A stretch of 64,000 bases of DNA, taken from assembly GCA_000004985.1 (NCBI GenBank), contig GG738875.1. One strand, 5' to 3'. The DNA comes from Naegleria gruberi. Taxonomy: Eukaryota. Every line of letters begins with the position of its first letter. Position 1 is the stretch's first letter. The notes under the pieces were generated by a model, which ran no database searches, was not told where the DNA came from, and saw only the letters and a list, made by a program, of their open reading frames with translations. Both the position numbers and the translations under genes were made by a program. Of this stretch, positions 3,150-28,955 are shown in pieces.

Positions 3150-3223
3150 TACGCCGTAAGGGAGTCGAACCCTTGACCTTCAGCGTGTAAAGCTGACGAT
3201 CTAACCAACTGATCTAACGGCGC
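3150..3223 (-). tRNA. tRNA-Val (anticodon UAC)
   Basis: Reverse complement GCGCCGTTAGATCAGTTGGTTAGATCGTCAGCTTTACACGCTGAAGGTCAAGGGTTCGACTCCCTTACGGCGTA folds as a cloverleaf. Anticodon stem TCAGC/GCTGA, loop TTTACAC gives anticodon TAC. GGTTCGACTCC T-arm. Followed on the coding strand by ATCTTTTTATTT. Confidence 0.85.
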
Positions 3224-3419
3224 TTACATTCAAAACGTGGATGAACCATATTTTGTGTACTTGTTATTTGACTATCTGCGTTGTAAAACTTTTTGCTTGT
3301 GCTACCTTGAAAACAACCCAAACGCAGCTAAATTGCTAAAAACCAACAAAAAAAAAAGTCTACACAAGTGCGTAACAAAAATTCAGCTGAAAATTCAAGA
3401 ATGACTAAATCGTGATCAG

Positions 3420-4712
3420 ATGCCAAGCACAAGAACCAACACCTCCAAGAATCAATCTACCAAGAGAAAACATGAAGAATCAACAAATATCACTGATTCC
3501 GAACCACAAACAAAAAATAGAAAAAAAAATAAAAATCGTGATGAGCGTCATGATGATCAAGAAATTGACAACCAAAGCATTGATGTCCTCTCTGCCAAAA
3601 CCAACTCAACAACAACCAACAAGAAGCAATCAAGAAGAGATCAATGGTACGCTTACGAATCTAGTGTATATCGCATTGATGTGTCCCTCCTGTTGAGTAG
3701 ACATGTAACTCTCTCGCTGACAGACATTTTATTTGATTATCAAAAGATTAGAGATGAAACAATCAAGGTAATTTTGCAGAATTATGAAGAAACTTTGATG
3801 GTAGATGTGAATAATCCTAATTGCCATTCAATGATGAGTCATGGTCAGTTGCATCTCAATGAAAGCATTCAATATAAGAGAAATCAATGCAAAATTATTG
3901 AAGATGAGAAATGTCGTGAAGCTTACTTGTGTGTTCACTCTAAGGAATTCACCAAAGATTCAGTCAAGAAAGCTGACGAAACGCTCATGTTTTCATGTGA
4001 TGGATGGTTAATTTACAGATGTGATAGAATGAAGGGAGACACCCATGCCTTCTCCACAATTCATGGCAAGATGATTGGTGACAAGATCAATACTAAAACT
4101 TTGTATTGGTTGGGAATTCATGATTCTCATTGTACTATTAGAAAAATTGAATGGGAAATTAAGGAAATTGTTGATAAGAAGAAAGAGAATTTTCCAGAAC
4201 CAGCATCCAAGAAGGAAATTGAACAAGAACTTGAAAAGCTAAAGGCAACACCTACCGACTATTTCATTCCAAATAGAGTGTTGGTTGTCGATTATCCCTT
4301 CATTGATGCAAATAGTGGTGTTCAGGGTAATTTACAATTTCAACCGCCACATGCTCAAACAGCTTTCCAAGAATCACCAATTCAAGATAATGAAACCAAT
4401 CCAACCAATTTACCTTTCCAATCGGATGGACATGGAGAATGGACAGATAACTCAGAAACCATTCAATCGGGAGATGATTTTGAGAATAAGAAAAGTCCTT
4501 GTCCATGGGGAAATGATATGTATAGTGCTGTGTTATCACCAATTCAAGATAATACCCAAACTATTTTACCTGCCCAAGTAGATTGCTCTGGAACAGAAGA
4601 ACCTGTAGCCAGTAATTTTGATCTTTTACCGATTCTAGACGAATTCGATAGTGAGATGAAGTTACAATCTAGCGATCTTGTTGATAACATACTAAATATT
4701 CTTTACTGTTGA
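3420..4712 (+). CDS. Hypothetical protein with basic (NLS-like) N-terminus
   Basis: 430-codon ORF, ATG at 3420, TGA at 4710-4712. K/R-rich N-terminal 60 aa, Cys/His-containing middle region. No recognisable domain. Confidence 0.5.
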   Translation: MPSTRTNTSKNQSTKRKHEESTNITDSEPQTKNRKKNKNRDERHDDQEIDNQSIDVLSAKTNSTTTNKKQSRRDQWYAYESSVYRIDVSLLLSRHVTLSLTDILFDYQKIRDETIKVILQNYEETLMVDVNNPNCHSMMSHGQLHLNESIQYKRNQCKIIEDEKCREAYLCVHSKEFTKDSVKKADETLMFSCDGWLIYRCDRMKGDTHAFSTIHGKMIGDKINTKTLYWLGIHDSHCTIRKIEWEIKEIVDKKKENFPEPASKKEIEQELEKLKATPTDYFIPNRVLVVDYPFIDANSGVQGNLQFQPPHAQTAFQESPIQDNETNPTNLPFQSDGHGEWTDNSETIQSGDDFENKKSPCPWGNDMYSAVLSPIQDNTQTILPAQVDCSGTEEPVASNFDLLPILDEFDSEMKLQSSDLVDNILNILYC

Positions 4713-4794
4713 ATTCCATATGTATACGGTATAGCAGAATAAATATTATTTCGTATTTTCTTAGAGAATGTTTAAAGAGCAAGATCTGAATAAT

Positions 4795-6441
4795 TTAATT
4801 ATCAGTAGGTTTATTTAAGAATAGTTTGAAAACTGTTTTCATAGTTTTAACATATGGCTTCTTTTTGTGTTGATCTATACAATCAAATATTTCTTTCTGT
4901 CCAATAATATGAACTGTATGTGATGCATTGACGTCTTCATCATAGGCTGTTGCTTTCTTTTTATATGAATTATACTGTTGTTTAAGAGAGGAAATACTAA
5001 GTGTTTCCATATTTGGAGAAATAAGCAATCTTAGACATGGATTTGATTCTAATTTAAAATTCTTAATGATGTCTTGAGTGTCTAGTTCGGTGTGTGGAAG
5101 ATAGATCTCTTTTTTGGTGATTTGTAAATTTTTGAAATTAGTCGTTTCTAACATTCTACAAGCTTTACAAGGTTGAATTGGATTATTAACAGGATCAGAG
5201 ATTAAGGATATAGCTGAAAGCACTGTGACATGAAGATTCTCCGAATTCTTCAGATAAAATATAAGATCAGGGCCCATTTTGTTATATGGTTTGATACCAG
5301 AATCAAGAAATATGTTGTCTAATTGTGAGTACCACATTCCTAGAATATTATTAGAAAGCTCGAGGTCGGATTTAGATAAAGTTTTATCCCTTATAAAGCT
5401 GTTAAAATTCAAACAACAGTTGTCAAAAGAGAGGTCTTTTAGCTTTCTAAATAAAGGACTGGAGGAATGATTCTTGGATTTGGATTCTGATAATCTCTCA
5501 CTTTCTTCCATCAGCAATAAGGTTATAAATATTTCAAAGGTATCCTCATTAGTGGATGTTTCACATCGTCTGGCAATATAGGTCCATAATTCTTCTCTAT
5601 AATTAGTAAAAACAAATTTGAAATAGCACTTGTAATCTATTGGATCCACAATTTCAAAAAAGTTGTTGGTTCCAATTCGAACTACATGAGCTACCGAGAG
5701 AGTTATTAGCGCATTTTCAATAGTCCCTTCTCCACTACATGAACACGGCTGACCAAACAACATTTTGAATATTGTTTCCAGAAAAACATGTCTATCACCT
5801 GAATCTATAAATTTAACAACCTTACTTTGAGCATGGGCTACTTTCTCTACCACAACATCATCCAAAATGCTCATACACACACTTTTCAATTGTTTGTTGG
5901 TTGGTTTGTGTAAAGTTCTTGAGTTCATAAGGAGAGCCTTATGAAAATCAGTGGTGTGTTGTGGAGGTCCTGATAACAAATAACAAAATAAAGCCATGTT
6001 TTTGGGACTGAGTGAAAGGTTGAATTTGTGTTCCAAAATTGTTTGAACATGAGTTGGTGACCAAGGTTCAAGACTACCCATTACAATTTTTGAAATTAGT
6101 CTCCCATTATCTGAAATACTTAAATCCACTTTAACCAAATTCAATGTGCTGCCTATGAAAACGACATTATTGAAGGGTAATATTGCCTTATAAATTGCGT
6201 GGAAAAGGCTCCCCTTTGTGCCATCAGAAAGATCAATTGAGCCTTTCTTCATATTCAATAATTCTTGAGATTCATCAAAGGCAATTACAATTTTCACTTT
6301 ATACCTGAGTCGAAATTCAAGTGTTAAACGTGAGCAAATTGTTGAGAGTGTTTCATTTTTCATCATGGAAAACAATGGCTTCCATAGCTCCCAACTGGTC
6401 ATAAGTGGCTGTCTTTTTCCTCTCATATATCTATTAATCAA
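4795..6441 (-). CDS. Hypothetical protein (548 aa ORF)
   Basis: Long ORF. The track start is a TTG; the first in-frame ATG is internal. Contains an hhhhDE stretch (KIVIAFDESQ) and an LLSGPP motif but no clear family assignment. May be joined with the ORF at 6471..6917. Confidence 0.4.
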   Translation of the reverse strand: MINRYMRGKRQPLMTSWELWKPLFSMMKNETLSTICSRLTLEFRLRYKVKIVIAFDESQELLNMKKGSIDLSDGTKGSLFHAIYKAILPFNNVVFIGSTLNLVKVDLSISDNGRLISKIVMGSLEPWSPTHVQTILEHKFNLSLSPKNMALFCYLLSGPPQHTTDFHKALLMNSRTLHKPTNKQLKSVCMSILDDVVVEKVAHAQSKVVKFIDSGDRHVFLETIFKMLFGQPCSCSGEGTIENALITLSVAHVVRIGTNNFFEIVDPIDYKCYFKFVFTNYREELWTYIARRCETSTNEDTFEIFITLLLMEESERLSESKSKNHSSSPLFRKLKDLSFDNCCLNFNSFIRDKTLSKSDLELSNNILGMWYSQLDNIFLDSGIKPYNKMGPDLIFYLKNSENLHVTVLSAISLISDPVNNPIQPCKACRMLETTNFKNLQITKKEIYLPHTELDTQDIIKNFKLESNPCLRLLISPNMETLSISSLKQQYNSYKKKATAYDEDVNASHTVHIIGQKEIFDCIDQHKKKPYVKTMKTVFKLFLNKPTDN

Positions 6442-6470
6442 TACTTCTCAGAATAACTATTGAATGATAC

Positions 6471-6917
6471 CTACTTGAAAAAATCAATTCCTGAAATTGT
6501 TTCATCATATTCCAATAATGTTTTAACAATTAACAAAGCTGATAGTACCATCATCAATACGGATTGTGTAACATCTCCATCAAAATCTTTCATTGCATTA
6601 ATAACATTATCTGAATAACAATTGAAGTAAAGGACGAAAAATCTCTCATAAATGGAAGTATTTGTTGGTGTTGAGCTAGCCAAATTGAAAATAGTATATG
6701 TTTTTCCCGATGAACTCAAATCAATAAATTTGATCATAGTGTAACCATCCTGATCCCTTCCGAACATTGTGGGTTCCTCTAACAGATTTCTAAGGTCTTT
6801 CCCCTTTGACTCAGGAACTCGAACAGTGTCAAAGTTGGAAGACCAGACACTAAGAGCTTCCTTATCAAACCCTTCAAGAGAACTTGGCAACAAAGGAGTT
6901 CTGAAAAAACTCCCCAA
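6471..6917 (-). CDS. Hypothetical ORF, possibly the 5' part of the gene at 4795..6441
   Basis: 148-codon ORF (TTG start in the track; first ATG at MFGRDQ). Contains SSSGKT. It lies only ~29 nt upstream of the next ORF on the same strand. Confidence 0.25.
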   Translation of the reverse strand: MGSFFRTPLLPSSLEGFDKEALSVWSSNFDTVRVPESKGKDLRNLLEEPTMFGRDQDGYTMIKFIDLSSSGKTYTIFNLASSTPTNTSIYERFFVLYFNCYSDNVINAMKDFDGDVTQSVLMMVLSALLIVKTLLEYDETISGIDFFK

Positions 6918-7016
6918 TATCGCTCTTTGTTTTTCTGTTTCGTTTGCAATGTTAAGTTTCCCACAACTGCTTGTCTGTTTTGAAATGGTAGACTTGTGCC
7001 CTTTGTGCCTCCAATG

Positions 7017-7529
7017 TTAATAGAATAATGTTAATGTGCTGAATTTTTGTTCGAGAATGTCCTTTGAAATGTAACTCACTAATTGAGGTTTGTGGACCCA
7101 ATAGGCAATCGTGTGACTAGTGGCATTCACAAATGGTTGTTTGTTTTTCTTAAATCTATCACTGATATTTGCTTCAGTTTCTTGTATGTCGGCTCCTCTT
7201 AGAAACTTCAAATCAGATCCCTTAAAATTGTCTAAAAGAAGGAAAATCGCTTTAGTAAAGTCAAGGCTCATTCCTCCCTCAACAAGACCAAGCATTAAAA
7301 CTTTGCAAAAAGTTAAAGAGTCCCACAAATGATAATTTTCAAAATAAATCCTCTCGGAGTTTTTTTCTATTGTAGATTGCATTGTATTATTTACTTCTTT
7401 TGAGGATTGAGTTGTGGTGTTGTTCCTTTCTGTTACGGTTTGGCTTTCATTGTTTTGAGTTGTGTTGAAGAGAAATATTAAAAAAGCGATGAATGCAATA
7501 AACAAAATCAAATAGTCTGTTAAGGTCAT
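7017..7529 (-). CDS. Signal-anchor N-glycosylation-rich hypothetical protein (copy 1, C-terminus frameshifted relative to copy 2)
   Basis: ATG at 7529. N-terminal hydrophobic segment LILFIAFIAFLIFLF. Copy 2 reads on as YTLEAQRAQVYHFKTDK, whereas copy 1 has a 1-nt difference creating TAA at 7017. Confidence 0.45.
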   Translation of the reverse strand: MTLTDYLILFIAFIAFLIFLFNTTQNNESQTVTERNNTTTQSSKEVNNTMQSTIEKNSERIYFENYHLWDSLTFCKVLMLGLVEGGMSLDFTKAIFLLLDNFKGSDLKFLRGADIQETEANISDRFKKNKQPFVNATSHTIAYWVHKPQLVSYISKDILEQKFSTLTLFY

Positions 7530-8153
7530 TTTTTACATATTCTCCCATAAAAAATTGTTAGAACTAAGTACATCCACCATATTAAGACAAAATCTAGCAC
7601 ATTTATCATGCAATTTTATTGCAGTCTGTGAGTGAAGTAAATATGATAAATTGCCACTCTCTATACGTTAGAATTCAACGTCGTGGACTCTTGCTCAGTT
7701 CCAGAGGATTGTGAAACTTGGAATTATTGCTTCCTGTGTGTCAAAACACCATAATCCAAGTCATAATTGTGGTTGTTAAAAGGGAGGGTGGTATGTGGAT
7801 CGGAAGTTCAAATACTCTAATGAACAATCATAAACGACAAAATTTCGAAAATAATATCATCATGAAAAAGGTTAAATACTGTACAAGCTCCTTCCTAGTT
7901 CGTGTTGGTGTTTTTTAATAATGTATCGGGTGAGATTTCACTTACTGTAGTCGTTGGATTATCTACACACGAGGTATACATTTGAATTTCCAACATTTAA
8001 ACCCCACCAACTCCAAAACTTGCTTGAAATTCCGCTCACTCTTCCATTAAGATTCAAAATTAAGGAGTAGATTAGTAGCCGATTAAGGTCACCATCTACA
8101 GCTCAAATATAAAGCTGATTGGAAACCAGGTAACAATACTCCATATCGAAAAA

Positions 8154-8770
8154 ATGTTCAAATTCAACACCATCTATCTTTTAGTTGTTGTGGTAACTCT
8201 TTTCATCGCTTTGATAAACAACAATTCTCATGTCAATGCTCTTCAGTTGCAAACAAGAGCAAATTCCACATGTCAAGTTATGATTAACGGAGCAGAAGTT
8301 AATATTGCATCCATCGATAGACCAAAAGGATATTTTATCATTGCAAGATCTGATCATAATATCAAGTTCCTTCTGTAAGTTGTTTCGTTATGTGACATTT
8401 GCTTAATGTGTGAAAATGTAGTAATCTTTGTAATGCTTCTCCTAATCCATATTACTGGAATTCACTTTGTAAATTCCCAGCTAAATCTGCTGGATATCAA
8501 TTCGCTTTTGAATATAATCTTTGTTATTCACTTTCAACTCCAGAAAATCCAAAAGTTTCTTACAATAGTGAAACTAAAACAGTTACCATTACTCATCCTC
8601 CAAGTGTTATCAATAGAGATGGAGTTTCAAGACAAATGAAAGTTAGCTTAGTGTGTGACAGAAATTCAAGTTTGTGGCCAGAATTGGATTTCGAAGGAGA
8701 ACAAAACTTGTTGTCTATCGTTTCTCTGGAAAGACAAGTTATATTTGTCATTAATGAATCCTTTGCTGAT
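8154..8770 (+). pseudogene. MRH (mannose-6-phosphate receptor homology)-like domain protein, copy 1 with a 10-nt deletion
   Basis: Exon 1 8154..8374 (signal peptide), GTAAGT intron, exon 2 from 8422. Relative to copy 2 the string AGATATGGAG is missing near 8706, causing a frameshift before the last conserved Cys of the domain. Confidence 0.35.
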
Positions 8771-9219
8771 AAAGATCTTTCAATTTGTTTCTAATTGTTA
8801 GTTTACTTTTCGTATTATCCATGTTGGAAAATTCACCATTAGTGAATTTTATTGATGGTTTGATGATGATGATCATATAGATATTTACCTTAATGATCGG
8901 AAGTGAATTTGCTGGTGATCTTTATCATAAACGCTATTCCAAAATGATGATGAGTTCAGTGATGATGTAGAGGAGTGGAAAGTGAGTAGAGAGCAATCAT
9001 TTTGTTTCTACATTGCTGTTGTTGATTTTGTAGCAGTTGTTTATTGCTTCCCAAGGAAAAAATTGATCAATTATGGCTTAATTTTTGATTTTGCATGACC
9101 AATTTGATTGTAAGAAATATCAAGTGATGTTAATTGTTTCATTTCACTTATGAATTTGGCTCCTTCATTATCAATTTCATTGCTACTAATATTAAGTAAT
9201 GTTAATTGTTTCATTTCGC

Positions 9220-9924
9220 TTATAATTTTGATTTTGCATGACCAATTTGATTGTAAGAAATATCAAGTGATGTTAATTGTTTCATTTCACTTATGAATTT
9301 GGCTCCTTCATTATCAATTTCATTGCTACTAATATTAAGTAATGTTAATTGTTTCATTTCACTTATGAATTTGGCTCCTTCATCACCAATTTGATTGTTA
9401 GAAATATCAAGTGATGTTAATTGTTTCATTTCACTTATGAATTTGGCCCCTTCATCATCAATTTCATTGCTACTAATATTAAGTAATGTTAATTGTTTCA
9501 TTTCAGTTATGAATTTGGCTCCTTCAATACCAATTTGATTGTTAGAAATATCAAGTGATGTTAATTGTTTCATTTCAGTTATCGATTTAGCTCCTTCATC
9601 ACCAATTCGATTGCAACCTATATTAAGTGATGTTAATTGTTTCATTTCACTTATGAATTTGGTGTTTTCTATGTCACCAAGCAACCAACCAGAAAAATTA
9701 AGATTAACAATACTATTCACGAATTGACTTTTTCTGAATAGTTCAATTCTTTTCTCTGTAAACTTTTTTTTAAATTCAATTACAAGTTTTGAACGTTCCT
9801 TGATCACATTAAAGAATTGTTTTGAAATTAAAGAACAATTATTCAAAATAAACCATGAATCATCAATCATGGAAATTATTTCAAAGCAAACATCATCCGA
9901 AAATATTTCAATCTTCATCTCCAT
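9220..9924 (-). CDS. F-box / leucine-rich repeat (RNI-like) protein, copy 1, truncated
   Basis: Probable start at MEMKIEIF (ATG ~9924). F-box-like DDVCFEIISMIDDSWFILNNCSLISKQF, then 24-aa repeats ISxNxIGxEGAKFISEMKQLTxL encoded by 72-bp tandem units. A duplicated ~145-bp 3'-end fragment at 9216..9360 introduces the stop at 9220. Confidence 0.55.
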   Translation of the reverse strand: MEMKIEIFSDDVCFEIISMIDDSWFILNNCSLISKQFFNVIKERSKLVIEFKKKFTEKRIELFRKSQFVNSIVNLNFSGWLLGDIENTKFISEMKQLTSLNIGCNRIGDEGAKSITEMKQLTSLDISNNQIGIEGAKFITEMKQLTLLNISSNEIDDEGAKFISEMKQLTSLDISNNQIGDEGAKFISEMKQLTLLNISSNEIDNEGAKFISEMKQLTSLDISYNQIGHAKSKL

Positions 9925-10763
9925 ATTGTTATGATTGATCACAATTATTAATATTAATATTATTAGTATTCTTATATATTTGATATAGTTTGTTGTAACT
10001 TGTTTGTTCTTTGCTTTTCGACTTGACACCTTCTTGATATTTGCTTTTAAATATTTTTTTTGGTTCTAAACTCGAAGAGGAAATGATTCGTGATAATTTT
10101 TCTGGATCGCTGACTTCAAATGATTGGTAAGGTGACACAATATCCAACCATTATCTGTGGATATGAAGTAATATTTCAGATCGTTGTCAGCATTTTTCCT
10201 CAGTGAATCTGTAGTTTCACTCTTGAGAGCCTTATTTATCATTGCTCATGCGAAGAGGAGCTTTGAACAATAGGAGAGGTAGAAATGACAAACCTACAGA
10301 CAGATGCCATCCTTTCCACGTGACATATATCAACTGGAGATGAAAGCACTTGTGTGTCAAAACACCATAATCTAAATCTTAATTCTGAGCTAACCACCCC
10401 TTTCAATTGTTTTGAACACTGAGTAATAATTACTGGTAATAAATAGCTGAATTGGTCAAAATTTAGAAAAGATTCAACACTGCTTCCCATTGAATTTTCA
10501 AAACAATTGTCATTATTAATAAAATCCAATTTAAACATGTCAATCCGTCCTACCAAAGATGGAGATCAAGTTATCAATTCACATACTGGTTAGCCGTTCT
10601 TGTTCAATTACCAAATTATTTCACATGATTCAAAAAACATCAGTGATTAAAATTTACCTGTAGTTCTGACAGAGGCAAATTAGTCAACAAGAATGTCAAA
10701 TGTCTACATCATTTCATTCACAAAAAAATATCAACAAAATAGCAACATCAAAAACACATCAAA

Positions 10764-11029
10764 ATGGGTAACGGTATTTCTAGAGACGAAATGAAACAGC
10801 TTCAAGAGCAAACTAAAAATCGTTTGACCAAGAAGGACATTCAACGTTATCACAAATTCTGGCATGAGCTCTACCCAAGTGGTGACATGACAAGAGAAGG
10901 TTTCAGTAAATTTGCACAAATTGCTCTTCCAAGTGCTCCTCCAGATGCTGATGTTGAATACTTGTTCAGAGCCATGGATGCTAACAAGGATGGTACTATT
11001 ACTGTAAGTGTGTTATATATTTTGAAATA
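10764..11029 (+). CDS. Exon 1 of NCS/recoverin-family EF-hand gene (copy 1, interrupted by the gap)
   Basis: Identical to 14939..15178 (MGNGISRDEMKQL...DANKDGTIT) followed by GTAAGT. Sequence runs into the Ns at 11074. Confidence 0.5.
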
Positions 11030-11073
11030 GTAGTGGTTTTTACGCTAATTGATGATGATGATTTTGATATTAT

Positions 11074-11123
11074 NNNNNNNNNNNNNNNNNNNNNNNNNNN
11101 NNNNNNNNNNNNNNNNNNNNNNN
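11074..11123. other. Assembly gap (50 N)
   Basis: Run of 50 n characters. Confidence 1.
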
Positions 11124-11684
11124 CTTGTCTGTTTTGAAATGGTAGACTTGTGCCCTTTGTGCCTCCAATGTATAATAGAATAATGTTAATGTGCTGAATT
11201 TTTGTTCGAGAATGTCCTTTGAAATGTAACTCACTAATTGAGGTTTGTGGACCCAATAGGCAAGCGTGTGACTAGTGGCATTCACAAATGGTTGTTTGTT
11301 TTTCTTAAATCTATCACTGATATTTGCTTCAGTTTCTTGTATGTCGGCTCCTCTTAGAAACTTCAAATCAGATCCCTTAAAATTGTCTAAAAGAAGGAAA
11401 ATCGCTTTAGTAAAGTCAAGGCTCATTCCTCCCTCAACAAGACCAAGCATTAAAACTTTGCAAAAAGTTAAAGAGTCCCACAAATGATAATTTTCAAAAT
11501 AAATCCTCTCGGAGTTTTTTTCTATTGTAGATTGCATTGTATTATTTACTTCTTTTGAGGATTGAGTTGTGGTGTTGTTCCTTTCTGTTGCGGTTTGGCT
11601 TTCATTGTTTTGAGTTGTGTTGAAGAGAAATATTAAAAAAGCGATGAATGCAATAAACAAAATCAAATAGTCTGTTAAGGTCAT
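11124..11684 (-). CDS. Signal-anchor hypothetical protein, copy 2 (3' end runs into the gap)
   Basis: ATG at 11684. Same protein as 7017..7529 but the frame stays open to the N gap. Confidence 0.45.
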
Positions 11685-12308
11685 TTTTTACATATTCTCC
11701 CATAAAAAATTGTTAGAACAAAGCACATCCTCCATATTAAGACAAAATCTAGCACATTTATCATGCAATTTTATTGCAGTCTGTGAGTGAAGTAAATATG
11801 ATAAATTGCCACTCTCTATACGTTAGAATTCAACGTCGTGGACTCTTGCTCAGTTCCAGAGGATTGTGAAACTTGGAATTATTGCTTCCTGTGTGTCAAA
11901 ACACCATAATCCAAGTCATAATTGTGGTTGTTAAAAGGGAGGGTGGTATGTGGATCGGAAGTTCAAATACTCTAATGAACAATCATAAACGACAAAATTT
12001 CGAAAATAATATCATCATGAAAAAGGTTAAATACTGTACAAGCTCCTTCCTAGTTCGTGTTGGTGTTTTTTAATAATGTATCGGGTGAGATTTCACTTAC
12101 TGTAGTCGTTGGATTATCTACACACGAGGTATACATTTGAATTTCCAACATTTAAACCCCACCAACTCCAAAACTTGCTTGAAATTCCGCTCACTCTTCC
12201 ATTAAGATTCAAAATTAAGGAGTAGATTAGTAGCCGATTAAGGTCACCATCTACAGCTCAAATATAAAGCTGATTGGAAACCAGGTAACAATACTCCATA
12301 TCGAAAAA

Positions 12309-12919
12309 ATGTTCAAATTCAACACCATCTATCTTTTAGTTGTTGTGGTAACTCTTTTCATCGCTTTGATAAACAACAATTCTCATGTCAATGCTCTTCA
12401 GTTGCAAACAAGAGCAAATTCCACATGTCAAGTTATGATTAACGGAGCAGAAGTTAATATTGCATCCATCGATAGACCAAAAGGATATTTTATCATTGCA
12501 AGATCTGATCATAATATCAAGTTCCTTCTGTAAGTTGTTTCGTTATGTGACATTTGCTTAATGTGTGAAAATGTAGTAATCTTTGTAATGCTTCTCCTAA
12601 TCCATATTACTGGAATTCACTTTGTAAATTCCCAGCTAAATCTGCTGGATATCAATTCGCTTTTGAATATAATCTTTGTTATTCACTTTCAACTCCAGAA
12701 AATCCAAAAGTTTCTTACAATAGTGAAACTACAACAGTTACCATTACTCATCCTCCAAGTGTTATCAACAGAGATGGAGTTTCAAGACAAATGGAAGTTA
12801 GCTTAGTGTGTGATAGAAATTCAAGTTTGTGGCCAGAATTGGATTTCGAAGGAGAACAAAACAGATATGGAGTTGTTGTCTATCGTTTCTCTGGAAAGAC
12901 AAGTTATATTTGTCATTAA
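12309..12919 (+). CDS. Secreted MRH-domain (mannose-6-phosphate receptor homology)-like protein
   Basis: Exon 1 12309..12529 (signal peptide MFKFNTIYLLVVVVTLFIAL), intron 12530..12576 (GTAAGT...TAG), exon 2 12577..12919 (TAA). Six-Cys pattern, with C..Y.F.....C, VSLVC and the terminal YRFSGKTSYIC typical of MRH domains. Confidence 0.55.
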
Positions 12920-13246
12920 TGAATCCTTTGCTGATAAAGATCTTTCAATTTGTTAGATTATTGACTTTTCTAATTGTTGGTTTACTTTTCGTATTATCCA
13001 TGTTGGAAAATTCACCATTAGTGAATTTTATTGATGGTTTGATGATGATCATATAGATATTTACCTTAATGATCGGAAGTGAATTTGCTGGTGATCTTTA
13101 TCATAAACGCTATTCCAAAATGATGATGAGTTCAGTGATGATGTAGAGGAGTGGAAAGTGAGTAGAGAGCAATCATTTTGTTTCTACATTGCTGTTGTTG
13201 ATTTTGTAGCAGTTGTTTATTGCTTCCCAAGGAAAAAATTGATCAA

Positions 13247-14101
13247 TTATGGCTTAATTTTTGATTTTGCATGACCAATTTGATTGTAAGAAATATCAAG
13301 TGATGTTAATTGTTTCATTTCACTTATGAATTTGGCTCCTTCATTATCAATTTCATTGCTACTAATATTAAGTAATGTTAATTGTTTCATTTCACTTATG
13401 AATTTGGCTCCTTCATCACCAATTTGATTGTTAGAAATATCAAGTGATGTTAATTGTTTCATTTCACTTATGAATTTGGCCCCTTCATCATCAATTTCAT
13501 TGCTACTAATATTAAGTAATGTTAATTGTTTCATTTCACTTATGAATTTGGCTCCCTCAACACCAATTTCATTGCTACTAATATTAAGTAATGTTAATTG
13601 TTTCATTTCACTTATGAATTTGGCCCCTTCAACACCAATTTGATTGCTAGAAATTTTAATTGATGTTAATTGTTTCATTTCAGTTATGAATTTGGCTCCT
13701 TCAATACCAATTTGATTGTTAGAAATATCAAGTGATGTTAATTGTTTCATTTCAGTTATCGATTTAGCTCCTTCATCACCAATTCGATTGCAACCTATAT
13801 TAAGTGATGTTAATTGTTTCATTTCACTTATGAATTTGGTGTTTTCTATGTCACCAAGCAACCAACCAGAAAAATTAAGATTAACAATACTATTCACGAA
13901 TTGACTTTTTCTGAATAGTTCAATTCTTTTCTCTGTAAACTTTTTTTTAAATTCAATTACAAGTTTTGAACGTTCCTTGATCACATTAAAGAATTGTTTT
14001 GAAATTAAAGAACAATTATTCAAAATAAACCATGAATCATCAATCATGGAAATTATTTCAAAGCAAACATCATCCGAAAATATTTCAATCTTCATCTCCA
14101 T
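13247..14101 (-). CDS. F-box / leucine-rich repeat (RNI-like) protein, copy 2 (~285 aa, 9 repeats)
   Basis: As copy 1 but with two more 72-bp/24-aa repeat units and a different C-terminus (…GHAKSKIKP). Probable ATG at 14101 (MEMKIEIF). Confidence 0.65.
   Translation of the reverse strand: MEMKIEIFSDDVCFEIISMIDDSWFILNNCSLISKQFFNVIKERSKLVIEFKKKFTEKRIELFRKSQFVNSIVNLNFSGWLLGDIENTKFISEMKQLTSLNIGCNRIGDEGAKSITEMKQLTSLDISNNQIGIEGAKFITEMKQLTSIKISSNQIGVEGAKFISEMKQLTLLNISSNEIGVEGAKFISEMKQLTLLNISSNEIDDEGAKFISEMKQLTSLDISNNQIGDEGAKFISEMKQLTLLNISSNEIDNEGAKFISEMKQLTSLDISYNQIGHAKSKIKP
13253..13870. repeat. 72-bp tandem coding repeats (LRR units)
   Basis: Periodic repeats of ...GTTAATTGTTTCATTTCACTTATGAATTTGGC... 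visible directly in the DNA. Repeat number differs between the two copies of the block. Confidence 0.85.
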
Positions 14102-14938
14102 ATTGTTATGATTGATCACAATTATTAATATTAATATTAGTATTCTTATATATTTGATATAGTTTGTTGTAACTTGTTTGTTCTTTGCTTTTCGACTTGA
14201 CACCTTCTTGATATTTGCTTTTAAATATTTTTTTTGGTTCTAAACTAGAGAAGGAAATGATTCGTGATAATTTTTCTGGATCGCTGACTTCAAATGATTG
14301 GTTAGGTGATACAATATCCAACCATTATCTGTGGATATGAAGTAATATTTCAGATCTTTGTTGAGGACTCAGCATTTTTCCTCAGTGAATCTGTAGTTTC
14401 ACTCTTGAGAGCCTTATTTATCATTGCTCATGCGAAGAGGAGCTTTGAACAATAGGAGAGGTAGAAATGACAAACCTACAGACAGATGCCATCCTTTCCA
14501 CGTGACATATATCAACTGGAGATGAAAGCACTTGTGTGTCAAGACACCATAATCTAAATCTTAATTCTGAGCTAACCACCCCTTTCAATTGTTTTGAACA
14601 CTGAGTAATAATTACTGGAAATAATATATAGCTGAATTGGTCAAAATTTAAAAAAGATTCAACACTGCTTCCCATTGAATTTTCAAAACAATTATATCCA
14701 ATATAAACATGTCAATCCGTCCTACCAAAGATGGAGATCAAGTTGATATCAATTCACATACTGGTTAGCCGTTCTTGTTCAATTACCAAATTATTTCACA
14801 TGATTCAAAAAACATCAGTGATTAAAATTTACCTGTAGTTCTGACAGAGGCAAATTAGTCAACAAGAATGTCAAATGTCTACATCATTTCATTCACAAAA
14901 AAATATCAACAAAATAGCAACATCAAAAACACATCAAA

Positions 14939-15973
14939 ATGGGTAACGGTATTTCTAGAGACGAAATGAAACAGCTTCAAGAGCAAACTAAAAATCGTTT
15001 GACCAAGAAGGACATTCAACGTTATCACAAATTCTGGCATGAGCTCTACCCAAGTGGTGACATGACAAGAGAAGGTTTCAGTAAATTTGCACAAATTGCT
15101 CTTCCAAGTGCTCCTCCAGATGCTGATGTTGAATACTTGTTCAGAGCCATGGATGCTAACAAGGATGGTACTATTACTGTAAGTGTGTTATATATTTTGA
15201 AATAGTAGTGGTTTTTACGCTAATTGATGATGATGATTTTGATATTATTATTTGTGTGTATGATGTGTTATAATTTCTTGTTATTGTTGATGTAAATTTG
15301 ATATGATTTGATATATGATCATGGAATATTTCGTTATTATGTTGTTATGAATTGTTTAAAATTATTAATTGGAATGTTAATGATGCAATACGTAATTTTA
15401 CATAACGATCATCATGATGAACTTCTACACTAATTATTACCATTGCTACCACTTGAATATTTTGCATTGATTGTATATATATGAATATTTATAATCGTTT
15501 AATAATAACACATTGATCAAACTCTTCCGAAAACACTCTACAATTCAGTTCAAAGAATTCCTCTTCTTCCAATCTATCACTGCTCCAACAACACAACCTC
15601 TTCAATTCCATGAATTAATTGATTTGGCCTTTGATATGTACGATGAAGACAATGATGGGTATGTTTTTACATCTATTTAACTAATTAATCAATACAATAT
15701 ATATTATTAATATTATCATCATCAATTCATCATCATCAAAATACAACAACAATTATATATAGCTTTGTAACTGCCGAAGAAATGAGAGACAGTTTAAGGA
15801 ACATGTTCAAGGCTAAGGGCATGAATGTAAACTCTTCAGAAATTGAGGGAACCATCAATACTCGTATTGAAAATCTGCTCAAGATTGCCGATAGTAATGG
15901 TGATGGAAAACTCACCCGAGATGAAATTGTTAAGGCTTGCCAAAAAGATCCATCTCTCTTGGTCTTGTTCTAA
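14939..15973 (+). CDS. Neuronal-calcium-sensor / recoverin-family EF-hand protein (3 exons, ~186 aa)
   Basis: Exons 14939..15178, 15549..15658, 15763..15973. Introns begin GTAAGT and GTATGT and end CAG and TAG. Total 561 nt, in frame. N-terminal MGNGIS (myristoylation consensus). EF loops DANKDGTITFKEF, DEDNDGFVTAEEM, DSNGDGKLTRDEI. Similar to NCS-1/frequenin (LTKKDIQRYHKFWHE.PSGDMTREGF). Confidence 0.75.
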
Positions 15974-16133
15974 TTTTTTTTTAAAAACAAACTTGTAAAA
16001 TCATGAATAAATTAAATAATTTCTCTTTTTGGATTATTTAATATTTATGGAAATTTGTAAATTCATTGTAAACTCAAAACCATTTGGAATGAAAAATTAA
16101 ATTTTTATTAATAAATTACGACTATTCCAACAA

Positions 16134-18515
16134 TTATTTAACGAACTTAGTCTTTCTCATATTTCTCACAATATTCGAAATAGGATAAACTCTCTCAACA
16201 GTGCAAGTCTTGGTTGTTGCCTTCATTTGAATTGCAAAACTCTTAAAGTTGAATTTTGCATCACACAACAAGTAGAATTCAACTTTACAATAGTCAGTTT
16301 CCAATACTTTCATTGGAACTCGTTCCTTCTTTTGACTTTCATAATCAAAGATCAATTCAGATAATTCATAACTATTCTCTGCACTCAATGATTTACCTCT
16401 TCCAGTAACGAACGTGGTCAATTGACCTTCTTTTAATTTGATTCCAGCAAAATATTGTTCCTTATTTAGGGTATCGCTACATTCGTCAAAGAAATCAGTG
16501 GAGAGATTTAAATTTTGATTAGTTTGGAATTCTTCTCTTGTTTTCACAACGAGATCGGTGGTTACATAGATTGCCTTGAGGGATTTAGTTCCACCATTCG
16601 TATCTTGGTATGAGATTCGAATAGTGAGTGGATAAGGCAAACTATCTGGAGGTCTAATCATGGCTCTAGCAGAGGTTGGACATGGATCTTCACTATTAGT
16701 TCTAATTAACGAATTGATGTGGTAATAGGACGAAACTTCACCTGGTTTCAAACTTAATGTCAATCCCCAAATATATTTACCATAATAATCGCTCTTCTCA
16801 AAGACAACCTCTTCAGAAAATGGAGCAACTCTTCTGGCAACGAGATCAGGTTCCCAATATCCAACTTGAGTATCCTCCATGGCAATCCATTCCTCTTTAG
16901 AATTAAGATATTCGACCTTAAACTTTTCAAGGGTGATTGCTTGAGAGGAAGAATTTCCAAATGCTAAATTCTGAATTTTGAATTGAGTACTTCCAACAGA
17001 TTGCTTAATTTCATAAATGGATGATCTGATGGTTGGATCCAGTGAGGTAAAACTTGGATGAAGATAGAAACCAACTACTGAACTACCTTCATCAGGATAG
17101 TTGACAATTAAGGAAGGATCATTGTTAACTTGTTGTAAAGCAGTTTTTCCTTCATCGATTGGTTTGTAATTCTCCTTGATATGGTCTTCATAATACTTGG
17201 CAAGTCCATCAAAATCATTTGGTCTGTCACTTTCCAATTGACTTCCCAAGGGAACTAAAGATCCTGATTTGGTTTTTGCTGCAACAAATGGACCATATCC
17301 ATACATTCTCAAGGTACCAAATAAAATTGGTTTCTTTGATAAAAACTTCCATCCACTAACCTCAATTACACCCTCAGTTGACTCGAGTGAAAATCTATTC
17401 AAATGAGGATAAGCTTTCGTTCCTTTAATAATTCCAAATGAAATCCATTTTCCGTGTTCTGTTGCCTTATAAAAGACTTCAATGTTATTACAAAAAGCAA
17501 CTTGATCAGAATCTGTATAGAGAGCATGAGTAAAATATTCCAAGTATTTGAATTGTTGAGCTTGTTTGTACTCGAAAATCATAACTCCACCAGTTGACAA
17601 GGCACCATACTGAGCAGATTCGTCCAATAAACCCTCCAATGTATTATCAGCTCTATTGGCAGTATCTTCAGGAACCATTAAAAGATCGCCATTGACTTTG
17701 AAAATATCTGGAACAAGAACATTGACCTCACCTGTTTTTTGAACTATTGTGGTAGTGGAGGTAGAGGAAGAGGTGGTGCTACTACTTGAACTTGGTTTAA
17801 CTTGTTCCACAATTGGTTTTTCTTGATTGGTGGTTGAGGAATTTTTGTCAACCTTGGAATTTGGTTTGCTAGTGGTCTTGTTTGATTGCTTACTACTTGG
17901 TGTAACTGAAGAAGAACCTTGAGACTTAACAGCACCTTTTTTATCCTCAGTTGATTGACTTGGAATTGAGTTGACTTTAGTGTCAGCACCAACCTTTGGT
18001 TTTTTTTCCTTAATAGGAGGATTGGCTAAACCACTATTGGCATTAATTGGAACATATGGAGCATAACCAAATAATCTGAGCATTCCAAAGAAGATTCTGC
18101 TGTATCTATTCTTGAAAAATCTCCAATATTTGGCCTTGACAGGTTTTTCAAATGGAATTGACATGATGGCAGGTTGTGGAATAATTTCCTTTCCATCAAT
18201 GGTTCTCAAAAGTGTCCATTCATCAGACTCATTCACCTTGTATTGAATTTCTACATCTTCTAACATGGCCCTCTGCCAACTGTCACCAACATTTCCACCC
18301 ATAAACTTCATCTCAGTAAAAAGATAGACATCATCATATTCCAATTGAATAAATCTGTTTGAACCCTCACTTGTGCAAGCACCATTCTTACCAATCTTTT
18401 TATCAATTAGTCCGGCAATAGTGTTATCTCCCCAATTACCAACACAGGACATTTTGAGATTTGCAATGGGGATCAAGTTGACTTCCCCTGAAACATACTT
18501 TGGTTCAGTAGACAT
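16134..18515 (-). CDS. Protein with three discoidin/F5-8 type C-like (galactose-binding-like) domains and S/T-rich linker
   Basis: 793-codon ORF, ATG at 18515, no signal peptide. Three ~150-aa internal repeats each ending in (F/Y)GxLR(L/M)(F/Y)GY(A/G)P(Y/F), resembling the C-terminal strand of discoidin domains. Mucin-like S/T/K linker after the first. Confidence 0.55.
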   Translation of the reverse strand: MSTEPKYVSGEVNLIPIANLKMSCVGNWGDNTIAGLIDKKIGKNGACTSEGSNRFIQLEYDDVYLFTEMKFMGGNVGDSWQRAMLEDVEIQYKVNESDEWTLLRTIDGKEIIPQPAIMSIPFEKPVKAKYWRFFKNRYSRIFFGMLRLFGYAPYVPINANSGLANPPIKEKKPKVGADTKVNSIPSQSTEDKKGAVKSQGSSSVTPSSKQSNKTTSKPNSKVDKNSSTTNQEKPIVEQVKPSSSSSTTSSSTSTTTIVQKTGEVNVLVPDIFKVNGDLLMVPEDTANRADNTLEGLLDESAQYGALSTGGVMIFEYKQAQQFKYLEYFTHALYTDSDQVAFCNNIEVFYKATEHGKWISFGIIKGTKAYPHLNRFSLESTEGVIEVSGWKFLSKKPILFGTLRMYGYGPFVAAKTKSGSLVPLGSQLESDRPNDFDGLAKYYEDHIKENYKPIDEGKTALQQVNNDPSLIVNYPDEGSSVVGFYLHPSFTSLDPTIRSSIYEIKQSVGSTQFKIQNLAFGNSSSQAITLEKFKVEYLNSKEEWIAMEDTQVGYWEPDLVARRVAPFSEEVVFEKSDYYGKYIWGLTLSLKPGEVSSYYHINSLIRTNSEDPCPTSARAMIRPPDSLPYPLTIRISYQDTNGGTKSLKAIYVTTDLVVKTREEFQTNQNLNLSTDFFDECSDTLNKEQYFAGIKLKEGQLTTFVTGRGKSLSAENSYELSELIFDYESQKKERVPMKVLETDYCKVEFYLLCDAKFNFKSFAIQMKATTKTCTVERVYPISNIVRNMRKTKFVK

Positions 18516-18967
18516 TGTTTGTTTTTTTTTGTTGCGTAGTTAGTATACGAAACTGAACTATTTAACGGTCCAAACAAATATCGTGTGGATTCATCCGAAC
18601 TTGAGTATCTCTTGTAAGTTTCTTCGTGTTCTTGAAACCGTCACTGAGCAATTAATAGAATTGGAGGAGTAACAACAAACAGTTACTAACACTCCTGAAC
18701 TGGAACAAAAACATGATATTTCCCTTTGTCGTGATAGGGTTTTTCAATTTTGGTTTCATTAGTTTGTAGTAGTATTAATAGTTTCTCGAATCAGGCAAGC
18801 GCATTGCATTGTTTTGTAAACATGGTTTTAATTGCAATTCGACATTGAGTGTGTTAAATTATCACGACTTGCAACTCTATTTTTGAAAAAGACAATTTAA
18901 GAATTTAAAGTAATTCTAGAATAAACATTTGTTTAATATATTGTACAATTGTTAAATAAATAATAAA

Positions 18968-20012
18968 TTAATAATAACGAGGTTGTTGATAGACAGGTGG
19001 TTGAGGAGGTTGATAAACACTTGTAGTTGGTTGACCAAAAGGTTGAGGTGGTGGCATGTTAGAATTATAAGAATTTGGTTGATAAACACTTGTAGTTGGT
19101 TGACCATAAGGTTGTGGATTATAAACTTGTGGTTGAGGTTGATAATAACTTGGTTGTTGTGATGGAATTGGTTGATAATAGGAAGGTTGTGGTTGTTGAT
19201 ATGTAATATTTTGTTGATAAGTAACTGTTTGTTGTTGTGGAGGTGGTTGATACATTGGTTGAGAATGGGTTGGAACTTGTTGATAAGTTGTAATAGATTG
19301 AGTTGGTTGTTGTTGATATTGGGTTGTTGTGACAGTAACAGTTTGATTTGGTTGGAGTGAGAATGAAGATGGATACATAACTCCACTCATTCCTCTAAAT
19401 CCACATTGTGACAATCCACCTGACATGACAAACAAGTAGGCATTGATAAATTCATCAAGAGTAATCACTCCATTTCTATCAGTATCCATCATAAAGAACA
19501 AGTGCTTGGATTGATGTTTGTGAACACCTAAACATCTCATGGCCAACTTGAAACTTCTCTTATTCAAATAGGTCAATCCCATAGAGTGTTGATAAAAGAG
19601 AGTTTGAGCTTGATTTACCCATGTTCCTCTATTAGAATGATAACTTGATGACTATTCATATTATTATCATCATTAATAATACAAACACATAACAGTATTA
19701 TTATCATCAGAATTAAATTTTTGATCACAATAAATCACAAATATTCACATCATCATCCACCAGATCAGCAAAATATTTAAAATTAACTGAGAAGAATAAA
19801 AAACATACCACTACAAAATTATTAGGTAACCATCTTGGTCTACAACCATGCCAGAAAGTACATGTTGGAGTAGTAGAGACGGTCACAGTTGGACGTGATG
19901 GAGTAGTCAAAACAGCAGCGGTAGCCAATCCCAAGCCTAAACCTAACAATCCAGCTCCAACGGCTCCTCCAATTCCATGATGATGGTGATGATGATGACG
20001 ACGACCGACCAT
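18968..20012 (-). CDS. EF-hand protein with His-run/Gly-Leu-rich N-terminal exon and Q/P/Y-rich C-terminal tail
   Basis: Proposed exon 1 20012..19809 (MVGRRHHHHHHHGIGGAVGAGLLGLGLGLATAAVL...FVV). Intron 19808..19652 (GTATGT...TAG), phases match. Exon 2 19651..18968 holds EF loop DTDRNGVITLDEF and then ~130 aa of YQQPQP-type repeats. Exon 2 alone (ATG 19582) is the conservative model. Confidence 0.4.
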
Positions 20013-27458: not shown

Positions 27459-28955
27459 TTACCAGAACACATTGAAGTATGGTTCGATTTCATGTTCATA
27501 AAGAAGATCATCATCTTGTTCAATTTTCACAAAGGCAAAACAATTCACCTCCACAATGTGATCCTTGGCTTGCTCTTCATTGTCAACCTGGTAAACTACT
27601 TGATCGCAAACATTGCAAAATCTATTACTATTTTTGTAAACTTGTAGAGATTCAAATTTGAGAGGACATTTGTAGATACATTCGCATTGATTGACTAAAT
27701 TCCATTCATACTCTTTAATTCTGTAATATTTCTTTCGTTCTTTTGAAATATTAATAGTAGGATTATGTATTTTGATGTGATTGATTCTTCTTCTAAGAAC
27801 GCAAAGCCAATTCTTGATATTTAGGTTGTTTCCATTAAAGTTTGGAAAATAAAAACAAACTAATGGTTTCCAAATTTCCAATTGAACTCTTTCAAATGCT
27901 GAACTTTCTTCATTGACGATAGAGGTGATGTTATCGACAACATGACAAAGGGCTCCAGAATTATCTGATTGTGGATCTATTCTTCTATTGAAGAATAGAC
28001 TCAATAATGATTGGTTTACCCATCGCAAATCTATTCAATTCTGATAAATTCAGAAACTTCCAATCAGTATTAGAATCTCAGATGGCAATTCATAGATAGT
28101 AAATTGTGAAATAGATTCTCCAGTACCCAAATCCACATTAATACTACAAATATTCATTAATCCATTTAAAATACTGTGTGGAATAGATGCTGAATTGGGA
28201 ATATCCAATTCTAATCCAATACTTGCCACATTATCCATTGCTTCCTGAACTAACTTATTCAATTCGGGTGTGGTCGTTAAATTCATTAATTTCATATATG
28301 AACGGTTCCAAACCACAGGTGAATTCTCATAGTAATTCAACACCTTCAATCCATATTCAATTACTGGCATCATGTCTAACATTTCCAATAAATCAGCTTG
28401 CATTTTTCCAATTTTCTCTCCCTCACTCAAAATTAAACAATCTCTACAAGATTCCACCTGTCCCACTATTGTTCGAAACACAACTCCCAATTGTTGAAAC
28501 ATTGGAGCAAGTATAGGAACTGGAATGGTGGCGGTGAATCCACTTCTGATGTAAATATTGCGTGGAGATCTTTCTCCAATTTTTGCCCTTGTTTCAAATT
28601 TGAAAGATTGAATTTGTTCAATCAATTCTTCAATTTCTGATGAATTTGTAAAGATTAGTCCAACATTTCCATTCAAATATTCGCAAATTTTGAGTAATGA
28701 CTCTGGATTGTGTTTCCTCTCCGAGGGTTTCACATTAAATTGAATGTCCTGAGCCAAGTTTCGAATAGCACTCTTGATCAATGTATTCTTTCCTTTCAAT
28801 AATATTGCTCTTCCTCTCAATTTCATTCGAATTATTTGCAATTGATCCGATTTCATACGAGTATCTATTTCAACAATAATTACATTCGAATGATCATGAA
28901 AATGTTGAATGACATCCTCGAATTTTACACTATTTTCATCATCATTCATTTTCAC
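27459..28955 (-). pseudogene. P0(uL10)-like / F-box / Cys-His finger gene, paralog B, disrupted by a -1/+1 indel pair
   Basis: ORFs 28050..28955 (P0-like domain ending in ELPSEILILIGSF) and 27459..28028 (rest of F-box + CxxC finger). Compared with paralog A there is a 1-nt deletion near 28041 and a 1-nt insertion near 28006, 35 nt apart, creating two in-frame TGA codons. Both indels lie in short homopolymers. Confidence 0.5.

What the first reader, a model, noticed from the sequence alone, without database searches (positions are those of the whole stretch)
6970..15233. ~4.1 kb block present twice on either side of the 50-N gap, with the upstream copy degraded
6970..11073 and 11124..15233 are ~98-99% identical (offset ~4155). 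The first copy stops exactly at the N run and the second starts right after it. That is the signature either of an uncollapsed haplotig or overlap joined by scaffolding, or of a real recent tandem duplication. The copies differ in ways that matter. Copy 1 has a 1-nt indel truncating the 7017..7529 ORF. It has a 10-nt deletion (AGATATGGAG) that frameshifts the MRH-like gene before its last Cys. Its F-box/LRR gene has 7 rather than 9 repeat units and an inserted ~145-bp segment that brings in a premature stop. Three disruptions in one copy suggests a decaying paralogous copy or a lower-quality allele.
Basis: seen in the sequence. Interest (0 to 1): 0.6.

Follow-up and report, generated by a model that had tools for sequence, protein, structure and literature searches.

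The report
Two alleles assembled as tandem copies
The 4.1-kb "duplication" around the gap in this Naegleria gruberi scaffold is most likely the two parental versions of one locus, laid end to end by the assembler rather than a real duplicated gene block, so it is an ordinary assembly artefact.

Summary
Window 6970-11073 and 11124-15248 align end to end: 4037 identical columns, 48 substitutions, 10 indel events. Both copies sit flush against the only gap, the 50 N at 11074-11123.

The window is Naegleria gruberi NEG-M, which the literature describes as a heterozygous diploid. The layout is a dovetail overlap: the last 4.1 kb of one contig equals the first 4.1 kb of the next. That is the known signature of a false "heterotype" duplication.

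An independent environmental contig of a near-identical strain (L003) supports this. It carries copy-1-type sequence at 9 of 11 sites that distinguish the copies. It then runs straight through the block's right end into the DNA that follows copy 2 in the window.

"Copy 1 degraded" is only partly right:
- The 10-nt frameshift is real.
- The LRR arrays have equal DNA length, with an out-of-register replacement.
- The effect of the 1-nt indel is unresolved.
- In the tail of the block, copy 2 is the more divergent copy.

The "MRH" and "F-box" labels found no support. I put the artefact at about 0.85 and a real recent tandem duplication at about 0.1. Interest is low.

The parts
6970..11073 (.). Copy 1: the last 4104 nt of the contig left of the gap. 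Read here as haplotype A of the locus.
   Evidence: Aligns end to end with 11124-15248. Ends on the last base before the N run.
11074..11123 (.). 50-N scaffold gap, the only one in the window. Probably a placeholder for a negative gap, i.e. an overlap.
   Evidence: sequence.
11124..15248 (.). Copy 2: the first 4125 nt of the contig right of the gap. Read here as haplotype B of the same locus.
   Evidence: It continues without a break into 15249 onward, as does the independent contig L003.
7017..7529 (-). N-terminal ORF of 'gene X', copy 1 (170 aa, ends at TAA 7017-7019). The copy-2 equivalent is 11684 down to 11124 and runs into the gap.
   Evidence: There is weak similarity (TIAxWV) to the N-terminal parts of paralogues P0023 and P0027, and clear similarity for the next ORF, 6917-6475. 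The 1-nt indel at 7017/11172 is.
8154..8794 (+). Small secreted Cys-containing protein gene, copy 1. Exons 8154-8374 and 8422-8794, 197 aa, with a tail frameshifted by the 10-nt deletion after 8707.
   Evidence: The spliced translation is identical to database protein P0015, a N. gruberi predicted protein.
12309..12919 (+). The same gene, copy 2. Exons 12309-12529 and 12577-12919, 187 aa, ending ...RYGVVVYRFSGKTSYICH*.
   Evidence: This version is not in the protein collection.
9220..9924 (-). LRR (RNI-type, 24-aa units) gene, copy 1, counted from the ATG of MEMKIEIF. It has 7 units in frame and a stop in hybrid unit U9'. The 72-nt array is 9094-9662.
13247..14098 (-). LRR gene, copy 2. It has 9 units. 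The 72-nt array is 13270-13839.
   Evidence: Pfam LRR_6 E = 2.6e-42. Units.
10764..11003 (+). Exon 1 of the EF-hand (MGNG...) gene, copy 1. It is followed by 70 nt of intron 1 and then the gap.
   Evidence: It is identical to the copy-2 exon.
14939..15973 (+). The complete EF-hand gene, found only after copy 2. Exon 1 is 14939-15178, and the last exon ends at 15973. The block ends at 15248, which is 70 nt into intron 1.

Best explanation
This is a false ("heterotype") duplication in the N. gruberi NEG-M draft assembly.

NEG-M is a heterozygous diploid. At this locus the two homologues differ by about 0.5% substitutions, nine small indels and a rearranged LRR array. On this reading, that was enough for the assembler to keep their reads apart.

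- The left contig was extended along one haplotype up to 11073.
- The right contig was started on the other haplotype at the position that corresponds to 6970.
- Mate pairs ordered the two contigs correctly, but their 4.1-kb overlap could not be merged.
- The scaffold therefore shows the overlap twice, with a placeholder gap of 50 N in between.

The genome would then hold one copy of the block per homologue, and the differences between "copies" are allelic.

Shown: the geometry, the identity of the organism, and the behaviour of an independent haplotype.
Inferred: the assembler's history, and single-copy status in NEG-M itself.
For: 1. **Dovetail geometry.** The homology starts on the first base after the gap and ends on the last base before it. 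An overlap model requires this. A real duplication would show it only if the contig break fell exactly on the junction.
2. **Both ends cut genes at arbitrary points.**
   - The right end lies 70 nt into intron 1 of the EF-hand gene.
   - The left end lies inside gene X.
   - There is no flanking repeat or microhomology.
3. **Organism.** Ten window ORFs are exact matches to N. gruberi NEG-M proteins on a 396,166-bp scaffold. [quoted passage not shown] It also states that heterozygosity was found in N. gruberi.
4. **Independent contig L003** (ENA ERZ929261).
   - It matches copy 1 at 9 of the 11 sites that distinguish the copies in 10133-11073. It matches copy 2 at the other 2 sites and has 3 private changes.
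   - It continues across the position of 11073/15248 into the sequence that follows copy 2: 615 matches, 8 mismatches, 7 gap events.
   - So copy-1-type sequence is joined to the right flank, as expected of an allele. It is not joined to the start of another copy.
5. **Level of divergence.** The copies are no more diverged than single-copy DNA is between NEG-M and that strain.
   - Between strains: L001 97.4%, L004 97.8%.
   - Between copies, outside the LRR tract: 21 substitutions in about 3.84 kb.
6. **Match to published criteria.** A gap between duplicates on one scaffold, in a region of elevated heterozygosity, in a Sanger-era assembly, fits Ko et al. 2022 (PMC9516828).
7. **Contrast.** The one clear old tandem pair in the window (27525-28935 / 29331-30623) is 76-89% identical and has no gap.
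Against: - No reads were available. Depth of each copy and junction-spanning reads, which are the decisive data, were not examined.
- L003 comes from another strain, so it does not show what NEG-M carries.
- Several potentially disabling changes sit in copy 1: the 10-nt frameshift, an 8-nt deletion, and a premature stop in the LRR gene. A decaying paralogue would also give this pattern.
- I could not retrieve the original genome paper to confirm how the assembler writes unresolved or negative gaps, or what genome-wide heterozygosity it reports.
Confidence: 0.85

Rival explanations
1. A real, recent tandem segmental duplication of 4.1 kb in NEG-M. The contig break happens to lie at the junction, and the upstream copy is starting to decay.
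For: - The two copies are on one scaffold, in tandem and in the same orientation.
- Copy 1 carries a 10-nt frameshift, an 8-nt deletion that both copy 2 and L003 lack, and a premature stop in the LRR gene.
- Assemblers do tend to break near repeat boundaries.
Against: - Both sides are flush with the gap to the base.
- The junction of a tandem duplication is unique sequence and should assemble. There is no obvious reason for a break there.
- L003 groups with copy 1 yet is joined to the right flank. Under this model the duplication would predate that split and then have collapsed again in the L003 lineage.
- The upstream copy would hold only exon 1 of the EF-hand gene, and the downstream copy only the 5' part of gene X.
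- In the block's tail, copy 2 is the more diverged copy, not copy 1.
Confidence: 0.1
2. A mis-scaffolded paralogue or an unresolved multi-copy array. One copy belongs elsewhere in the genome, or the gap hides further copies.
For: The region is structurally variable. A third haplotype lacks two segments of it. LRR genes of this type are generally believed to form a large family in Naegleria (my own recollection, not tested here).
Against: - Copy 1 is continuous with the left flank and copy 2 with the right flank.
- The independent contigs L004, L003 and L001 cover the left flank (to 6870) and the right flank, including the block's right end, in the same order. No contig covers the left boundary.
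- A dispersed paralogue would not end flush with both contig ends.
Confidence: 0.03
3. A "homotype" false duplication. The same haplotype was assembled twice because of read errors.
For: There is a gap between the copies.
Against: - The differences include multi-nucleotide indels of 8, 10, 13 and 14 nt.
- A 270-bp tract was replaced by units that are 72/72 identical to units two positions further along the array. This is not an error pattern.
- At all 11 variable sites covered by L003, it carries the state of one copy or the other.
Confidence: 0.02

Closest known systems
Heterotype false duplication (uncollapsed haplotypes / haplotig overlap), as catalogued by Ko et al. 2022, Genome Biol 23:205 (PMC9516828)
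   Same: - Two near-identical blocks lie on one scaffold with an assembly gap between them.
- The locus is more heterozygous than its surroundings.
- The assembly is Sanger-era (own knowledge) and of a diploid.
- Genes are partly duplicated as a result.
   Different: Read depth, read-pair discordance and 1-copy k-mers are the other criteria of that study. They could not be checked here. The organism is a protist, not a vertebrate.
Recent tandem segmental duplication with pseudogenisation of one copy
   Same: Head-to-tail copies of several genes, with frameshifts in one copy.
   Different: No junction sequence is present. The copies end exactly at the contig ends. An independent haplotype links copy-1-type sequence to the distal flank.
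Out-of-register gene conversion or unequal exchange in LRR arrays (a general property of tandem LRR-coding repeats)
   Same: Copy-1 units 4-6 are 72/72 identical to copy-2 units 6-8. A hybrid unit follows, and the total array length is kept.
   Different: On the reading given here it distinguishes two alleles of one gene, not two paralogues. The direction of the event is unknown.

Membership tests
Heterotype false duplication (assembly artefact) | An assembly gap lies between the two copies on the same scaffold. | tested here: met
   The 50-N run at 11074-11123 lies exactly between the copies. The criterion is from PMC9516828.
Heterotype false duplication (assembly artefact) | Dovetail geometry: the homology reaches the very end of one contig and the very start of the next. 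| tested here: met
   6970-11073 aligns with 11124-15248, flush on both sides.
Heterotype false duplication (assembly artefact) | The source organism is heterozygous and not haploid. | tested here: met
   The window is N. gruberi NEG-M by exact protein matches. The literature describes a heterozygous diploid (PMC9928731). I did not measure this myself.
Heterotype false duplication (assembly artefact) | Haploid-level (half) read depth over each copy, and haplotype-specific k-mers. | not testable with these tools
   No reads are available. Exact-protein look-ups returned only the ENA metagenome contigs (L001, L003, L004), no other assembly of this strain.
Heterotype false duplication (assembly artefact) | The variants that separate the copies behave as alleles of one locus in independent samples. 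| tested here: met
   L003 shares 9 of 11 states with copy 1 and 2 of 11 with copy 2, and it is contiguous with the distal flank. This rests on one contig from another strain, covering only the last 0.94 kb of the block.
True tandem duplication | A junction sequence joins the end of copy 1 to the start of copy 2. | not testable with these tools
   The junction would be hidden by the gap. In L003 the block end is followed by the distal flank, not by a block start. Two scans of JGI metagenomes found nothing.
MRH (mannose-6-phosphate receptor homology) domain | A significant match to MRH-type Pfam families or to solved MRH-domain proteins. | tested here: not met
   No MRH-type family appears in Pfam at E <= 1. 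There is no MRH protein in the PDB sequence search at E <= 10. The AlphaFold model is unusable, with mean pLDDT 37.7.
F-box protein | An F-box domain match in the N-terminal region. | tested here: not met
   A Pfam scan of the 90 N-terminal residues at E <= 1 gave no F-box family.
LRR_6 / RNI-type leucine-rich repeat protein | Repeated 24-residue LRR units that match the Pfam LRR families. | tested here: met
   LRR_6 E = 2.6e-42 and LRR_8 E = 6.2e-32. The 72-nt period is present 7.9 times.

The most novel reading that the evidence does not exclude
The block really is duplicated in tandem in NEG-M. The duplication would be very young and strain-specific, and it would be caught while the upstream copies of three genes are being disabled. 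Even under the artefact reading there is a lesser point of interest. The locus is a hotspot of structural polymorphism in N. gruberi:
- a frameshift allele of a secreted protein;
- an LRR array remodelled out of register;
- a wild haplotype that lacks both exon 2 of that secreted-protein gene and the whole LRR gene.
Probability: 0.1. Interest if true: 0.3.

Novelty: not a real feature. Interest (0 to 1): 0.12.

Why it matters
The main value is as a warning about the reference. The N. gruberi NEG-M scaffold shows 4.1 kb twice, which can inflate counts of LRR genes and create truncated gene fragments.

The reference proteome also carries the frameshifted allele of one gene (P0015, 197 aa). The apparently intact 187-aa allele is absent from the protein collection.

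Once the two copies are read as alleles, they give a phased view of 4.1 kb of both NEG-M homologues:
- about 0.5% substitutions outside the LRR tract;
- many small indels;
- one out-of-register replacement inside an LRR array.

This adds no new biology beyond known heterozygosity.

Tried and rejected
**Searches that led nowhere**
- Exact-protein look-ups for several window ORFs, to find other assemblies of the locus. Most were not on record.
- Homologue search with the gene-X N-terminal ORF: no hit.
- Two exact-pattern scans of JGI metagenome contigs, one at the block start and one in EF-hand exon 1: nothing.
- The ENA contig on the left side (L004) stops at window 6870, 100 nt short of the block start. 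The left boundary therefore has no independent witness.
- The N. lovaniensis locus of the 793-aa neighbour (L002) shows no sign of shared gene order with the window and gave no help.
- The original genome paper and the 2011 review are not in the held library. The project id PRJEB11402 is not mentioned in any held paper.
- tRNA and Rfam scans of 6000-16200 were empty. Base composition is unremarkable.

**Tests that failed to support a label**
- "MRH-like": Pfam, a PDB sequence search and a single-sequence AlphaFold model gave no support or were uninformative.

**Ideas I dropped**
- I first read L003 as a recombinant mosaic of the two copies. With three haplotypes, the pattern of 9 + 2 + 3 sites fits a simple tree, ((copy 1, L003), copy 2), so it is not evidence of recombination.
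- I considered that the two segments missing from L003 were precisely lost introns. The junctions do not fit GT...AG boundaries.
Full report
**1. The observation**

The window has one N run, 11074-11123, of 50 N, and 34% G+C. BLASTN and a global alignment pair 6970-11073 with 11124-15248. The alignment has 4144 columns: 4037 identical, 48 substitutions and 10 indel events. The repeat finder shows the offset drifting from 4155 to 4182.

Copy 1 ends on the last base before the gap, and copy 2 begins on the first base after it. A 4.1-kb match at this identity is far beyond chance. The only other duplication in the window is an old pair at 76-89% identity, 27525-28935 against 29331-30623.

**2. 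Whose genome it is**

Ten long ORFs of the window are exact matches to proteins of Naegleria gruberi strain NEG-M on a 396,166-bp scaffold. Examples are EFC43227/XP_002675971, EFC43147 and EFC43230.

[quoted passage not shown] Citing the 2010 genome paper, it also says that heterozygosity was found in N. gruberi. I could not read the genome paper itself.

**3. What the block contains (coordinates of copy 2, then copy 1)**

- **Gene X, N-terminal ORF, minus strand** (11684->11124; 7529->7017). The next ORF of the gene (6917->6475) lies left of the block. It is clearly homologous to paralogues P0023 and P0027. The N-terminal ORF is only weakly similar to them.
- **A small secreted Cys-containing protein, plus strand.** Exons 12309-12529 and 12577-12919, 187 aa. 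In copy 1 the exons are 8154-8374 and 8422-8794, 197 aa.
- **An RNI-type LRR gene, minus strand** (14098->13247; 9924->9220). Pfam LRR_6 gives E = 2.6e-42.
- **Exon 1 of an EF-hand gene, plus strand** (14939-15178; 10764-11003). Its remaining exons exist only after copy 2, up to 15973.

The block's right end lies 70 nt into intron 1 of the EF-hand gene, and its left end lies inside gene X. No repeats or microhomology flank the block. There are no tRNA or Rfam matches.

**4. The differences, one by one**

- **The 1-nt indel** (A at 11172, absent after 7017).
  - In copy 1 it makes a TAA that ends the ORF. That TAA is in the same frame as the downstream homologous ORF.
  - In copy 2 the ORF reads on to the gap, but in a frame that does not match the downstream exon.
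  - A candidate intron would contain the indel: GTGAGT at 7079-7074, with AG at about 6993 or 6978. This is inference.
  - The reference annotation's model of the gene (P0019, 522 aa) starts further downstream and says nothing about it.
- **The 10-nt deletion in copy 1.** It frameshifts exon 2 after ...EGEQN and removes ...RYGVVVYRFSGKTSYICH. My spliced copy-1 translation is identical to the database protein P0015. This validates the intron and shows that the reference proteome carries the frameshifted version.
- **The LRR arrays.** They have equal DNA length, 7.9 x 72 nt each.
  - Copy-1 units 1-3 equal copy-2 units 1-3.
  - Copy-1 units 4-6 equal copy-2 units 6-8, at 72/72 each.
  - Unit 7 is a 71-nt hybrid: the first 45 nt of terminal unit 9 plus a normal unit tail. 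It brings a stop.
  - Units 8 and 9 then follow again.
  - The copy-1 protein therefore loses two LRRs and ends ...GHAKSKL* instead of ...GHAKSKIKP*.
  - 27 of the 48 substitutions belong to this shifted tract. Outside it the copies differ by 21 substitutions and 9 indels in about 3.84 kb.
- **Other indels.** These are 14, 8 and 13 nt, plus four of 3 nt.

**5. Independent sequence**

An ENA metagenome (ERZ929261, run ERR1078381) contains a very close N. gruberi-like strain.

- L001 equals window 15890-19886 at 97.4%.
- L004 equals window 3152-6870 at 97.8%.
- L003 (1701 nt) equals window 14307-15897.

Eleven sites distinguish the two copies in 10133-11073. L003 has the copy-1 state at 9 of them and the copy-2 state at 2. 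It also has 3 private changes. It then continues across the block's right end into the sequence that follows copy 2, with 615 matches, 8 mismatches and 7 gap events.

The simplest tree is ((copy 1, L003), copy 2). Copy-1-type sequence is thus found joined to the distal flank, which is what an allele does. The upstream member of a tandem pair would instead be followed by the start of the next copy.

**6. Interpretation**

The layout is a dovetail overlap of two contigs that the assembler could not merge. The scaffolder placed them in the right order, with a placeholder gap between them. Ko et al. 2022 (PMC9516828) list the hallmarks of heterotype false duplications:

- a gap between duplicates on one scaffold;
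- locally elevated heterozygosity;
- half read depth;
- discordant read pairs.

They found such duplications most often in Sanger-era assemblies. The first criterion is met here and the second is compatible with what I measured. The last two cannot be tested without reads.

A real tandem duplication would need three things. The contig break would have to fall exactly on the junction. The junction, which is unique sequence, would have had to fail to assemble. And the duplication would have to be older than the copy-1/L003 split and then have collapsed again in the L003 lineage.

I put the artefact at about 0.85 and a real duplication at about 0.1. Other artefacts share the rest.

**7. Labels**

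"MRH-like" and "F-box" are not supported. No Pfam match of either kind appears at E <= 1. No MRH protein turns up in a PDB sequence search. The structure model is unusable, with pLDDT 37.7. The secreted protein has no detectable homologue other than its own allele. The LRR label stands. The EF-hand label rests on weak, sub-threshold Pfam hits.

**8. Verdict**

The "decaying copy" reading is not needed, although copy 1 does carry at least one genuine frameshift allele. This is an ordinary assembly artefact with small practical consequences for the N. gruberi reference annotation.

Noticed in passing
L003 1-118 versus window 12489-12521, 13060-13129 and 14307 onward (copy-1 equivalents 8334-8366, 8884-8953 and 10133 onward): The environmental haplotype joins three pieces: the end of exon 1 of the P0015 gene, then 15 unmatched nt, then 13060-13129, then 14307 onward. 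It therefore lacks 12522-13059 (exon 2 of that gene) and 13130-14306 (the whole LRR gene). One ORF reads through both junctions. The junctions do not fit GT...AG boundaries.
   Followed up: partly
window 8154-8794 (P0015) versus 12309-12919: The reference proteome entry for this gene (P0015, 197 aa) is the allele with the 10-nt frameshift. The 187-aa version, which ends in the sixth Cys, is not in the protein collection.
   Followed up: yes
window 4795-7529, minus strand: The annotated model of gene X (P0019, 522 aa) starts at an internal Met. Paralogues P0023 (800 aa) and P0027 (700 aa) align well to the upstream ORF 6917-6475, and P0023 also weakly to ORF 7529-7017. A GTAGGT...AG intron links 6475 to about 6431. 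The gene is probably much longer than annotated.
   Followed up: partly
window 27459-28955 and 29274-30689, minus strand: This is a genuine older tandem pair of "ribosomal P0-like" genes, 76-89% identical at the nucleotide level. The first member is split into two ORFs (301 aa + 189 aa), against a single 471-aa ORF in the second.
   Followed up: no
window 14291-14451 plus strand (copy 1: 10117-10270): A plus-strand ORF segment, ...QYPTIICGYEVIFQIFVEDSAFFLSESVVSLLRALFIIAHAKRSFEQ*, is intact in copy 2 and in L003. In copy 1 the 8-nt deletion after 10186 frameshifts it. It overlaps a minus-strand ORF (14675->14421). Which strand codes is unknown.
   Followed up: no
L001, L003, L004 (ENA ERZ929261 / ERR1078381, project PRJEB11402): A sample labelled as a metagenome holds contigs 97.4-97.8% identical to N. 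gruberi NEG-M, over at least 9 kb of this window. It may be a useful second strain for checking other suspect regions of the reference.
   Followed up: partly
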